64,000 nt of DNA, from assembly GCA_964016885.1 (NCBI GenBank), contig OZ024743.1, positions 54,064,001 through 54,128,000 on the forward strand, read 5' to 3'. The stretch's first letter is position 1. Each line of letters opens with the position of its first letter. The position numbers and the translations under genes are program-made. Of the stretch, positions 17,021 to 21,642 are shown in pieces. This DNA is from Eledone cirrhosa. Its lineage: Eukaryota. A model generated the notes under the pieces. It did no database searches, was not told the origin of the DNA, and saw only the letters and a list, made by a program, of their open reading frames with translations.

Positions 17021-18658
17021 ATAGAAAGGATAAAAAGGACGATTGATTATTCCTTCATTGCATTTATTGATAGGTGACGCGCGTTTCGCCACTGATCAGC
17101 TCAGGGTTCGATCTATATCGATCCTACCCGACTCAATAATCCGCAGCTCGACGGACCTTCTTAAAATGCTATAAGAAAATGAAATACATGCTATGTGATA
17201 AAGTCAGATATTCAAGAGTTTGACAAAATGAGTTGTTTTGATTGGTGGGAAGGGTCAAGGCGATGTACTGGCCTGTAGTGTGTATGGGGTAGGTGTGATG
17301 GTGAGATGTTGGGTGGTGGTGGTTGATTGGCCTTGGCGTGTAGAGTATGTGTGGGTGTGGATGTCATGATATGGTGGTGGTTATGTTTGCTTAGTGGGAT
17401 GGGCTTTGGTATGAGGTTAGTGGGTTGTCAGTGGACGGGTTGGCGTGTGTGTGGGGGTGTGGTATTGGTGCCGTTGTCTATGGTAGTGGCGTTTGTGGTG
17501 GTGTGGCGGATGTATTGGTGGCGTCAAGTCATTACCTAGATACATAGCTAGTCGCTCATCGTCTGGCAGATGCTTTGTATATACTTATACGCACACACAT
17601 ATAGGTATATATGTGCACACATATTGTTGTATAAACACACCCACCACACAACACATACGCACATCCTTGCCCCCACATATCGACACACGCTCACACACGG
17701 CCATATGTATATGTACACACATGTGTATGTGCGTGCGCGCGTGCGGCCACGAATATGGAGAGTGGGGGAGTATCGTTGGGGGTGGCGAACGACGGAGATG
17801 GGAGGAAGGTGAGAGGCAATGTAGAAGGTATTTTACATACATACATACATACACATACATATTCCCATACATACATATGGGTATGGGCATACTCACTCAC
17901 ACACACGTATACCCACGCACATATATACACATACATATACACACACACATACATATATATACGCATATATATATATATATACATATACATAGATATACAC
18001 ACACACACACACACATGTACAGACAACACACAGATATACACGCACATATACATATACATGCACGCACATATACATATACATGCACGCACATGAGCTCACC
18101 TACACATATAGTCAGATTCACCCATATACCTATATGTAGACGTGCACATATACACACATACATACACATACATATAGACACACACACATACACATACGCA
18201 TACACATACACACATATATATATATATATACAGATACGTACCCACACATACACACATGTATACACCTGCGCTTATATACACACACACACATACAATAACT
18301 ATGCGTACACGCACACTCATACGTCCGTATGTGTAAGAATACTTACAGACCGACACACACGCTATTGTTGGTGGTGGAGTGGGGGTGTGCGTTGTTCGTG
18401 TGGGTGTGCATTTTCGCAAGGTCCGTCGAGCTGCGGTTTATTGAGTCGGGTAGGATCGATATAGATCGAACCTTGAGCTGATCAGTGGCGAAACGCGCGT
18501 CACCTATCAATAAATGCAATGAAGGAATAATCAATCGTCCTTTTTACCCTTTCTATATATTACACTCTGTATAGCTCTACACATCATCACAGAAGTGAAC
18601 CTAAACATCGAGTGCTCACCCGAGTGAACCTGCAGTAACTCCTAGTTACACCCCCTGG
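17021..18658 (+). mobile_element. Non-coding element in (TA)n with about 140-bp inverted repeats (17021-17159 / 18418-18558), probably a non-autonomous Penelope-like element with an inverted pseudo-LTR
   Basis: The arms are near-identical reverse complements and contain GAAAC-GCGC-GTC followed by AATAAA. The right copy extends about 100 bp further. The interior is GT- and CA-rich with no coding capacity. Confidence 0.65.
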
Positions 18659-18806
18659 ATATATATGTATATATATATATATGTATATATATATATATAT
18701 ATATATATATATATATATATATATATATATATGTAGATAAATCTACCAAGAGTTTACGGTAGTGTCCAATCCGTATGAACTTTGTTTTTCCATTGTGATA
18801 TTTCTG

Positions 18807-18942
18807 CTGAAGACGGCATATATGTGTGTTTGGTATGTATATTTAATCTTGATAGTTTGTATAATTTTGTATAATTTTGTACATAGATCTGTTGAATATG
18901 CATGCCAATTCTAACACATATATATCCTAGAAACGATCGTTA
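18807..18942 (+). ncRNA. Hammerhead-ribozyme-like motif with a very long stem II
   Basis: CTGAAGA (18807) is followed by stem II ggcatatatgtgtgtttggtatgtatatttaa / ttgaatatgcatgccaa..aacacatatatatcc and then GAAAC-GATC-GTT. Stem I is weak. Confidence 0.6.
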
Positions 18943-19526
18943 AATAATGAACTTTTTTTGTTTAATATAAGGAACTGTTTCATTGTTTTATTCATTATTT
19001 GTTTAATATTTTATATATATATATATATATATATGTATGTATATATATATATATGTATGTATATATATATATATATATGTATGTATATATATATATATAT
19101 ATATATATATATATATGTATGTATATATATATATATATATGTATGTATATATATATATATGTATGTATATATATATATATATATGTATGTATATATATAT
19201 ATATATATATATATATATATATATATATATATATGTATGTATATATATATATATATATATATATATATATATATATATATATATATATATATATATATAT
19301 ATATATGTATATATATATATATATATATTTATTCAGGTTTGAGGTTCACCACTGTATAGAGCTGGTCTATTCCGTATGGTTAATCGTAATGCAATAATAT
19401 AGAGAGTACTCAACGTAAAGCAGTTCAACCGTCTTTGTTTTTGTAGTTGGTGGTGCTATTACGGAGTTAAATATTATAATGAAATGACAGGAGGCTGGAT
19501 TTGTGTAAATCCTTGAAAGGTATATT

Positions 19527-19584
19527 ATACTATGATCATTTCAATGACCGGGTTCCGTATGAATCCGGTGATATCATCAGGTAT
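19527..19584 (-). ncRNA. Minimal type I hammerhead ribozyme
   Basis: Minus strand reads atac-CTGATGA-tatc[accggattc atacg gaacccggt]catt-GAAA-T-GATC-A-TA-gtat. Stem I is atac/gtat, loop III is the palindrome GATC, and the cleavage triplet is AUA. Confidence 0.75.
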
Positions 19585-20374
19585 TCGAAATATAATACGT
19601 GAATGTAATAGATAAAATCCATGGGGCTGAAAATCGAGGACTCGAGGGCGACCGCTATTCTGTTCCTTCAACCTCAGCCGGTCGCCCTGATAATCCAATA
19701 ATATCCACTTTCCGTGACTTACCATCTGATTAATTGGTGAAATATATTTCTTTAATGAAATATATACAGGGAAGATTAATCATTAAAAGGTATATATTTT
19801 TGAAGTTCTAGTTAACTTTATTTATGTTACCTACTAGCCATGCGTGGTTACACGCTTGTAAAAATTATCTCCTGTGATTTTTCATGTTTATATTTATTTA
19901 TATATATGTTGATCAATTCCTAGTTATTATTATATATGTATATATATATATATATGTATATGTATATATATATATATGTATATATATATATATATGTATA
20001 TATATATATATGTATATATATATATATGTATATATATATATATATATATATATATATATATATATATATATATGTATGTATATATGTATATATATATGTA
20101 TATATATATATATATGTATGTATATATGTATATATATATGTATATATATATATATATATATATATGTATGTATATATGTATATATATATGTATATATATA
20201 TATATATATATATATGTATATATATATATATATATGTATATATATATGTATATATGTATATATGTATGTGTGCGTGTATGTGTGTGTGTGTGTCTTTAAG
20301 AGGTGAAAGCATAGTCCATCAAATCGCACATTCAATTGCTGGCTTCAGGGCCTGGGAATAACATATGAGTTACG

Positions 20375-20545
20375 GATAAGCAGAATTGGTAGAGCGAAGG
20401 ATAAAATATCATACCGTTCTTTGTTTTGGTTCTTTACATTCTGAGTTCAAATCCCATTGAGATCAGTTTTGCTTTTTATCCTTCAGAGGTCGATAAAATA
20501 AAGCACATGTTAAGCATTGGAGTCGATTGAATCAATATTGCTTTT
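20375..20545 (+). mobile_element. tRNA-derived SINE (family B)
   Basis: gcagaattggtagagcg, ctgagttcaaatccc and tttgctttttatccttcagaggtcgataaaataaag. Confidence 0.75.
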
Positions 20546-21284
20546 CCCTCAGGTTTTCTGAGTAAATTTGACCAGTTATCAAATATCCTTAACTTGACCT
20601 TTCACACATCTTATTTCACCCTTAACTTGACCTTGTCCTTTCGTATATCTCAATTGTTATATATTTCGGAAGAACCTGGGATCTCTTTACTATATCTTCA
20701 CTCTTATATCACTGATTTGTTCCCTATTTATTTCCTTATATATATTTTGAGTATTCCCTTTTATTTGTTGTCTGCTTTACTTTATTTTTTATTATTTTCC
20801 TTTCCATGGGACCTGCTTTCTCGTCTGATTCGATTCATCAAAATAAAATCCAGTTGTTTCTGGAAGAGGACAGCAGAGATGTGCATTTTTACGGCTGATG
20901 ATTTGGTGATACATAATTACCATTGATTATCTTGCACACCGATATCTGTATTTCTTCGCCGAAACAATCGTAAAATAATGGATGAATTAATACCTGACTT
21001 TGCTTTTCTTATTCTTTCTTTCACACACACACACACACACACACACACACACACACACACACACACACACACACACACACACACACACACACACACACAC
21101 ATATCACTATTATTATTTATCTTTTACCCTTTACTCGTTCATTTCCTTATTGTCAATATGTTTTTTATTTTTTATTTCTCATTTTATTATTGTTGTTACT
21201 TTTTAAACATTTTAAACCTTTTTTTACTGTTATCCTTTTTTGTTTTGTTTTATCCTTCACCATTTCTGTGGTCTTTAAATGTAA

Positions 21285-21642
21285 ATCTACTGTTATACAT
21301 TCAACTACTCCCTCCTCAGCCCCTAAAAACCTACTAATAAGTGTATATAAAAAGGCGCCTCTAGTGTGCCTAGTGTAAATAGATTAAATAGAATCGAAGT
21401 CTGTGTCGCAGCATATGTACAAACATTATTGGCATATTACAATTGTTTCGATATCGATCAGCTCAGGTTAAAATCAAAATGACGGGGCCCGATTCTTTTT
21501 CGACAACTGGTCAGATATGCGAGTTTATATGTGCAAAGACATATTCAAACTGTTGACAGAGATCCCGGGATCTTTTTTATATACACTTATTAGTAGGTTT
21601 TTAGGGGCTGAGGAGGGAGTAGTTGAATGAATAACAGTAGAT
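21285..21642. mobile_element. Fold-back module with about 69-bp inverted arms (21285-21353 / 21574-21642) around a spacer carrying an HHR-variant motif
   Basis: The arms are near-perfect reverse complements. The spacer minus strand reads cctgagctgatc-gatatc-GAAAC-AATT-GTA at 21438-21467. Confidence 0.7.

What the first reader, a model, noticed from the sequence alone, without database searches (positions are those of the whole stretch)
17076..21467. Recurrent non-canonical ribozyme-like motif CCTGAGCTGATC-N6-GAAAC-palindrome-GTH in two unrelated elements
Seen: minus strand 17076-17105 reads cctgagctgatc agtggc gaaac gcgc gtc (mirror at 18472-18501 with one change). Minus strand 21438-21467 reads cctgagctgatc gatatc gaaac aatt gta. 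The 12-mer, the 6-nt spacing and GAAAC..GT are identical, loop III switches between two different palindromes, and the flanks are otherwise dissimilar. The 3' half is the minimal hammerhead stem III plus a GUH site, but CUGANGA is replaced by CUGA-GCU-GA and there is no obvious stem II. Inference: this is a conserved hammerhead variant with an expanded core, or a derived RT/endonuclease recognition signal.
Basis: partly seen in the sequence, partly recalled or inferred. Interest (0 to 1): 0.78.

Follow-up and report, generated by a model that had tools for sequence, protein, structure and literature searches.

The report
Long-armed hammerheads with recurrently eroded cores
The motif is the back half of a hammerhead self-cutting RNA with an unusually long arm, carried at the ends of thousands of copies of a Penelope-like jumping gene, and in two separate young lineages the cutting core has changed in the same way while the arm stayed, which suggests the arm likely has a job of its own.

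Summary
The three motifs are real. They are the 3' halves of type I hammerheads whose CUGANGA core lies about 55 nt upstream. The 6-nt 'spacer' is the 3' strand of stem II. CUGAGCUGA belongs to a 58-62-nt stem II arm with a conserved GARUC/GAGC internal loop.

These ribozymes sit in the pseudo-LTRs of Hydra-clade Penelope-like retrotransposons: roughly 9,000 sites in nine subfamilies. Published Hydra hammerheads have arms of at most 25 nt, and Rfam finds none of these.

Copies 1/2 belong to a young subfamily (at least 1,173 copies) with core CCGUCGA (U4C+A6U). The same core arose separately in a second lineage (AU p=7e-9), and a third has CUGAARGA. Copy 3 is a dead relic (G8C).

Copies end about 55 or 160 nt past the cleavage site, so uncut RNA is the template. 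Best reading: a slow, dimer- and protein-dependent ribozyme whose arm is likely a binding or folding module. No cleavage or expression was shown. The scan noted ordinary short-armed Penelope hammerheads on other DNA, not this form.

The parts
17072..17158 (-). Copy 1: whole type I hammerhead of subfamily A' (stem I, core, 60-nt stem II arm, GAAA, palindromic stem III, GUC)
17148..17154 (-). Copy 1 catalytic core, variant CCGUCGA (U4C + A6U)
   Evidence: 1,173 genome matches
17088..17147 (-).
17076..17087 (-). GAAA, palindrome CGCGCG, UC; predicted cleavage between 17076 and 17075
   Evidence: sequence
17021..17071 (-). 3' end of copy 1: AATAAA at 17063-17068 and short terminus (about +55) abutting the (TA)n array 15940-17020
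17159..18386 (-). 3' UTR of the 5'-truncated A' element, 80% identical over 1.5 kb to full-length copy L122
18419..18505 (+). Copy 2: inverted hammerhead, core CCGUCGA at 18423-18429
18506..18665 (+). Long terminus ('tail', about +160) of copy 2, 94.6% identical to the sequence between pLTR and ORF start of L122, ending at (TA)n
21432..21520 (-). Copy 3: hammerhead relic of old subfamily B; core CUGACCA at 21508-21514 (G8C, predicted dead); stem I GCAUAU/AUAUGC; palindrome CAAUUG; GUA
21352..21651 (-). Extent of the subfamily B remnant; its upstream 78 nt are duplicated in inverted form at 21276-21353

Best explanation
The motif is the 3' half of a type I hammerhead with a 58-62-nt stem II arm in the terminal repeats of Hydra-clade Penelope-like retrotransposons; it likely cleaves only slowly, as a dimer and with the element's protein, and the conserved arm loop likely serves as a binding or folding module that is kept even where the core has been weakened. 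Shown: the architecture, the co-variation, the host element, two fixed 3' ends downstream of the cleavage site, and two separate origins of the CCGUCGA core. Inferred: two pLTR copies on one tandem transcript pair through their palindromic stem III; the RT-endonuclease binds the pLTR RNA, nicks (TA)n DNA and starts cDNA about 55 or 160 nt past the GUH site. Because the template must span that site uncut, fast cleavage would be costly, so weakened cores (U4C, then U4C+A6U; or a 1-nt insertion) spread while the arm is held. The identity of the feature is about 0.95 sure; the mechanism as a whole about 0.55.
For: 5,644 genome matches to core-N44..62-GAAAC-N4-GTH against 35 controls. About 9,000 sites carry the arm motif: 10,368 raw matches, 0 controls, 85 distinct among 100 listed rows. 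Named structure on 43 copies: 84% of cells paired, 20 of 31 pairs with two-sided changes, 157 such cells, slid controls 30-35%. Arms of six subfamily representatives fold alone into nearly the same rod. Direct pLTR pairs flank an RT + GIY-YIG ORF in L121, L122, L347, L350 (A') and L362 (I). Hydra signatures present. 36 of 45 A' copies end at +53..57 or +159..164. With the core removed, CCGUCGA copies fall in two clades. Variant-core subfamilies are the most homogeneous: 0.92, 0.92, 0.89 against 0.80-0.86. G5, G8, A9, GAAA, GUH and GARUC/GAGC are kept in all nine majorities. In an anole PLE the hammerhead cut only with protein and cutting was not needed for insertion (PMC11167929).
Against: No cleavage, expression or binding was observed. 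RNAalifold predicted no pairs on the same alignment. The structure was drawn by me from these sequences, and its pair-count measure was reached by 26 of 500 shuffles. Arm z-scores are modest (-0.1 to -2.8), and representatives of C, D and one of I folded otherwise. The arm motif was used to recruit most copies, so its conservation is partly circular; it was not in the patterns, where it still appears. In A' the short CAG/CUG stem beside the loop has decayed to UUG/CUG, and the predicted best fold of copy 1 buries the core in another hairpin. Other long-armed families here (E, F, G) lack the loop. In the anole PLE the protein-binding signal was placed in the first 172 nt of the ORF, not in stem II. 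In the H/I lineage the order of core changes is unresolved.
Confidence: 0.55

Rival explanations
1. CCGUCGA is a fully working alternative core. The long arm makes tertiary contacts that rescue it, and cleavage at the 5' pLTR releases the transcript or starts cap-independent translation of the ORF about 200 nt downstream.
For: The same double change arose twice and spares C3-G8, G5, A9, G12, A13; stems I and III still co-vary. Natural U4C and A6C variants keep low activity (PMC3088659). Type I hammerheads before viral ORFs support translation (PMC13725137, passages).
Against: In a pairwise mutagenesis screen all single and double changes in this region were of low activity except the C3-G8 swap (PMC9901934, passage; a type III construct). 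No pile-up of 5' junctions at the site was seen (small sample).
Confidence: 0.22
2. The ribozyme is simply dead in A', H' and I and rides along. The arm is conserved only because the subfamilies are related and the region is short.
For: Cleavage was dispensable for insertion in vitro. Naiad PLEs thrive without canonical hammerheads. The A' arm shows local decay.
Against: Free decay should hit G5, G8, A9, GAAA and GUH, and differently in each lineage. Instead the same two positions changed twice, while stems turned over with compensation between families whose RTs are only about 60% identical.
Confidence: 0.18
3. One reading: a compact hammerhead with expanded core CUGA-GCU-GA and no stem II.
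For: The 11-mer is shared by subfamilies A and B and resembles CUGA..GA.
Against: A core stands 55 nt upstream; the N6 pairs with the strand after it; the 11-mer varies in A', C, H and I; stem I pairs the 3' flank with bases before the upstream core.
Confidence: 0.02
4. The conserved loop is a kink-turn bound by an L7Ae-family host protein.
For: GA dinucleotides face each other across a bulge in A and B (sequence; k-turn consensus recalled).
Against: The GA of CUGA becomes CA in C, GU in H and AC in I, and these bases pair with the opposite strand (CAG/CUG to UGG/CCA; 6 two-sided changes at each of two pairs). No Rfam match.
Confidence: 0.03

Closest known systems
Hammerheads of Hydra-clade Penelope-like elements (Craig et al. 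2021, PMC8557442, File S2), including Hydra-1_oBim of Octopus bimaculoides
   Same: Type I topology near the 3' end, short stem I, stem III closed by a few bases, (TA)n targets, same protein signatures. The stem II of Hydra-1_oBim resembles the core-proximal stem of subfamily B.
   Different: All 26 listed Hydra rows have CUGANGA and a stem II domain of at most about 25 nt. Here it is 58-62 nt with a conserved internal loop, and cores CCGANGA, CCGUCGA and CUGAARGA are common.
Minimal hammerheads (min-HHR) of metazoan PLEs (Cervera and de la Pena 2014, PMC4209133)
   Same: In both pLTRs, palindromic helix III implying dimers, inverted pairs 100-700 bp apart, many diverged families, low expected activity.
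   Different: Its 56 representatives have helix II of 3-8 bp with short loops. The unpaired base after A9 is absent in A-D. Its core variant was U3-A8, not U4C/A6U.
Protein-assisted hammerhead of the anole Poseidon PLE (Frangieh et al. 2024, PMC11167929)
   Same: Two reverse-transcription starts downstream of the cleavage site giving the 'tail'; uncut RNA as template.
   Different: There the ribozyme overlaps the ORF start and has an ordinary stem II; here the ATG is about 200 nt downstream.
Natural core variants U4C, A6C, A6a (Perreault et al. 2011, PMC3088659)
   Same: Changes at positions 4 and 6 and an insertion after A6, with low but detectable activity.
   Different: Those are single, rare variants; A6U and the U4C+A6U pair are not in the section read, and here they occur in over a thousand copies and arose twice.
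Short-stem-III hammerheads of PLEs (Lunse, Weinberg, Breaker 2017, PMC5785218)
   Same: Dimer-cleaving PLE hammerheads with reduced stem III (title seen in reference lists; content recalled).
   Different: Paper not held, so I could not check whether any of its types has a long stem II.

Membership tests
PLE type I (minimal) hammerhead | Core CUGANGA | tested here: inconclusive
   Met by the majorities of A1, A2, B, C, D; not met by the three window copies (CCGUCGA, CCGUCGA, CUGACCA) nor by H, H', I.
PLE type I (minimal) hammerhead | GAAA, A15.1-U16.1 pair and NUH site | tested here: met
   the DNA query did not demand these and its copies keep them.
PLE type I (minimal) hammerhead | Short palindromic stem III | tested here: met
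   158 of 214 perfect palindromes; 18 two-sided changes at each inner pair.
PLE type I (minimal) hammerhead | Short open stem I with compensatory change | tested here: met
   5 of 6 pairs with two-sided change, 74% of cells paired.
PLE type I (minimal) hammerhead | Helix II of 3-8 bp with a short loop | tested here: not met
   58-62-nt multi-segment arm.
PLE type I (minimal) hammerhead | Placed in both pLTRs around an RT-EN ORF | tested here: met
   A' and I: direct pairs; H: 3' copy after an ORF (L363). Not established for B, C, D.
PLE type I (minimal) hammerhead | Self-cleavage as a dimer | not testable with these tools
   No RNA run listed; needs a bench assay.
Hydra clade of PLEs | C-terminal GIY-YIG, CxCX5C linker, DKT, RWK-like motif, CxxC and CxH around E and N, no GxKF/Y | tested here: met
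   A' ORF of L345: ADKTG, LWRA, CNCKKRAEC, YIGAT, CRLCLAE, CRH, no GxKF/Y. Pfam GIY-YIG only weak, E 0.009-0.018, below cut-off; none on the whole ORF.
Hydra clade of PLEs | Insertion into (TA)n | tested here: met
   Most A' termini abut (TA)n.
Hydra clade of PLEs | Length under 3 kb | tested here: not met
   Repeat units of 4.9 kb (A') and 5.7 kb (I) owing to long 3' UTRs; the paper says 'generally', so this is a soft feature.
Hydra clade of PLEs | RT groups with reference Hydra elements on a tree | not tested
   Reference proteins lie in a supplement and were not brought into an alignment.
Neptune/Nematis clades of PLEs | CX2-5CxxC linker | tested here: not met
   No match in L345, L353, L381.
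Kink-turn | Conserved tandem G.A/A.G pairs after a 3-nt bulge | tested here: not met
   The candidate GA is lost and Watson-Crick paired in C, H, I.

The most novel reading that the evidence does not exclude
A ribozyme caught changing jobs: in these octopod retrotransposons the hammerhead has gained a 60-nt arm that is the element's own protein-recognition signal, and selection has twice driven the core to the same CCGUCGA state, either a tuned-down or a new protein-rescued catalytic core.
Probability: 0.3. Interest if true: 0.75.

Novelty: new variant of a known kind. Interest (0 to 1): 0.52.

Why it matters
What hammerheads do in Penelope-like elements is open: they cut poorly and cutting was not needed for insertion in the one element tested. 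This genome gives a natural series (CUGACGA, CCGACGA, CCGUCGA twice, CUGAARGA) on one scaffold, with relative ages and a near-intact ORF, so cleavage rate and arm function can be tested against evolutionary success. It also shows that thousands of hammerheads per genome can be missed by Rfam and by descriptors that cap the spacer (17 nt in Craig et al.), and suggests re-examining the 'half-core' cases reported for cephalopod Naiads.

Tried and rejected
Expanded-core parse and kink-turn: rejected by co-variation.

Neptune assignment, my first reading: dropped after the motif check.

Link of copy 3 to the neighbouring ORF at 21641-22529: dropped. None of 24 other loci of that family showed a B-type motif within 1.5 kb, and the family has its own hammerhead. 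The parent ORF of B was not established (L446 is ambiguous).

Rfam: no hammerhead in the window at gathering score or in 6 loci at E up to 5. RNAalifold: no pairs.

Outside relatives: 50 metagenome loci, 51 matches, none with more than 5 of 8 stem II pairs; 1 viral-contig match without a core; no viral relative of the ORF. These collections hold little animal DNA.

Sequencing runs: no RNA holder listed; no reads were laid.

Genomic trace of cleavage: 176 matches with the GAAA disturbed. Of 30 loci examined 8 were true 5' junctions; 7 kept 2-9 nt of ribozyme and one is ambiguous. Three of 100 listed rows have (AT)n directly at the site. Inconclusive.

Searches used gaps that were too short and returned deletion-bearing copies. 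PDB sequence search: nothing.

Literature searches that showed no description of this arm or of A6U: and a motif search in Craig's supplement. Lunse 2017 and Garrett 1996 were not held.
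Full report
OBSERVATION. Allowing two mismatches the window has 3 matches against 0.05 expected. The 3.0-Gb genome has 547 exact matches against 1 control. The genome is likely an octopod (inferred: the best named homolog of the element's protein is from Argonauta hians, 42% identity over 55% of the query).

WHAT IT IS. A pattern that asks only for core, a 44-62-nt spacer and GAAAC-N4-GTH gives 5,644 matches against 35 controls. 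I aligned 43 copies: 42 hand-picked from the 116 to cover subfamilies, plus window copy 3. On a structure that I drew from them, 84% of cells pair; 20 of 31 pairs and 157 cells show two-sided change; partners slid by 1-3 columns pair at 30-35%. The cell count exceeded all 500 shuffles, the pair count was reached by 26, and the tool warns that kinship inflates such tests. RNAalifold predicted no pairs on this alignment. Folded alone, the arms of A, B (two copies), the L173 family, H, H' and one I copy give nearly the same rod, with z from -1.8 to -2.8; A' is similar but opens near the loop; one C, the D and a second I copy fold otherwise. Majority lines of nine subfamilies keep GARUC and GAGC while stems I, II and III turn over. 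A search for the arm and GAAAC that leaves the core free gives 10,368 raw matches and 0 controls; 85 of the 100 listed rows are distinct, so roughly 9,000 sites. The 6-mer after GAAA is a perfect palindrome in 158 of 214 distinct copies, and AATAA follows 6-7 nt after the site in 156 of 214.

THE HOST ELEMENT. In L121, L122, L347 and L350 two same-strand A' ribozymes about 4.9 kb apart flank an RT and GIY-YIG ORF; L362 shows the same for subfamily I at 5.7 kb; L345 holds an 861-residue open frame. Window 16921-18386 is 80% identical to the 3' UTR of L122, so copies 1 and 2 are a truncated insertion with an inverted end. The protein has ADKTG, an RWK-like motif, a CxCX5C linker, CxxC and CxH, and lacks GxKF/Y and CX2-5CxxC. 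These are the marks of the Hydra clade in Craig et al. 2021; Pfam support is weak. Of 45 A' copies, 14 end at +53..57 and 22 at +159..164 after GUC, mostly in (TA)n; 3 run into the ORF, whose ATG is near +200; 6 end elsewhere. This is the two-start 'tail' described for the anole element, and it means that these copies were made from RNA spanning the cleavage site. Copy 3 belongs to the old subfamily B and has G8C. The ORF next to it (21641-22529) is another family with its own hammerhead at 23695-23749. No parent ORF was secured for B, C or D.

CORE VARIANTS. Copies 1 and 2 read CCGUCGA; so do 1,173 genome matches, with 0 controls. A second family, H, with other stems I and III, shows CUGAGGA, CCGAGGA, CCGACGA and CCGUCGA (119 matches). 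Family I reads CUGAARGA. Among the 85 distinct rows I count by hand 21 CCGUCGA, 19 CUGANGA, 10 CCGANGA, 11 CYGAARGA and 24 mutated or truncated. A tree of 137 rows (of 168 with a recognisable core, of 214; A' thinned) built without the core columns puts CCGUCGA in two clades; in A the order is CUGACGA, CCGACGA, CCGUCGA, in H/I it is unresolved (149 columns, bootstrap not settled). One clade is rejected, p-AU 7.2e-9. Median pairwise identity is 0.92 for A' (47 copies) and H' (15), 0.89 for I (20), and 0.80-0.86 for the others; the samples came from different patterns, so this ranks ages only roughly.

HOW IT LIKELY WORKS. Shown: structure, context, termini, parallel core change. From papers: metazoan PLE hammerheads cut weakly and as dimers; the anole one needs protein and is not needed for insertion; U4C, A6C and an insertion after A6 give low activity; double changes in this region were of low activity in a type III construct. 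Inferred: pLTR copies pair through stem III; cutting is slow and protein-assisted; the uncut RNA is the template, so weaker cores are favoured or tolerated; the arm loop is held for binding or folding (0.55). Against my reading: A' has lost part of the 3-bp stem, copy 1 is predicted to bury its core in another hairpin, other long-armed families lack the loop, the anole binding signal was placed in the ORF, and the search for junctions at the cleavage site was inconclusive.

COMPARISON AND NOVELTY. Hammerheads in pLTRs are known since 2014. The 26 Hydra rows of Craig's File S2 all have CUGANGA and stem II domains of at most about 25 nt; two spike-moss elements there have loops of about 30-35 nt. 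Cervera's 56 representatives have helix II of 3-8 bp. Craig et al. capped the spacer at 17 nt and flagged 'half cores' 35-50 nt apart, including Octopus and Euprymna Naiads. Rfam finds none of these ribozymes. Ten literature searches showed no description of this arm or of A6U. Lunse et al. 2017, the most relevant survey, could not be read and may bear on novelty. It works like a PLE hammerhead; as a member it fails the helix II test and, in these copies, the core test. Verdict: new variant of a known kind, interest 0.52.

PAPERS SEEN. PMC4209133: parts 1-2 of 4 and supplement parts 1-2 of 3. PMC8557442: passages, section 11, supplement part 2 and searches. PMC11167929: parts 1-2 of 4. PMC3088659: passages and section 8. 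PMC9901934, PMC6765202, PMC13725137, PMC10085705: passages. bioRxiv 10.64898/2026.07.22.740005: part 1 of 5. PMC5785218 and PMC1369408: titles in reference lists only. Hammerhead numbering and the kink-turn consensus are recalled. Subfamily letters are my own labels. Earlier scan notes concern short-armed PLE hammerheads in other genomes; look-ups by sequence and by genome were blank.

Noticed in passing
window 21641-22529 (+) and 23695-23749 (+): 3' part of another Hydra-type element (family G, at least 150 genome matches at 80-92%) with its own hammerhead: 36-nt stem II and palindrome UGCGCA followed by UA, so the site reads AUA.
   Followed up: partly
window 8329-8406 (+), 43716-43789 (+) with 43263-43335 (-), 42178-42236 (+), 19531-19580 (-), 20895-20972 (+): Further hammerhead-like motifs with long spacers; the 43-kb pair is inverted; the last three are unverified.
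   Followed up: no
L035, L044, L130, L131 (family E); L040, L060, L129, L132 (family F): Other abundant long-stem-II hammerhead families without the GARUC/GAGC loop; long arms may be general in this genome's PLEs. L130 has an endonuclease fragment between an inverted pair.
   Followed up: partly
L353-L356: A homogeneous family with open frames of 772-894 residues, RT 58% identical to A'; no long-armed ribozyme was found in the fetched flanks.
   Followed up: partly
L173:1751-1846 and 1973-2068; L361, L368, L373: Two more arm-bearing subfamilies with an unusual base of stem II (C.A or shifted register).
   Followed up: no
Craig et al. File S2, Hydra-1_oBim: Its short stem II resembles the core-proximal stem of subfamily B, suggesting that the arm was inserted into loop II.
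   Followed up: no
window 13120-13224 (+), 38857-39062 (-), 42675-42739 (-) and 42821-42885 (+): Rfam matches to U6, U3 and an inverted pair of tRNA-like heads; probably pseudogenes or SINE heads.
   Followed up: no
window 4001-8000: Strong skew (GC +0.79, AT -0.45), likely a G/T-rich tandem array.
   Followed up: no
window 27829-28476 (-): 215-residue frame resembling the end of an RTE-type LINE reverse transcriptase (label recalled).
   Followed up: no
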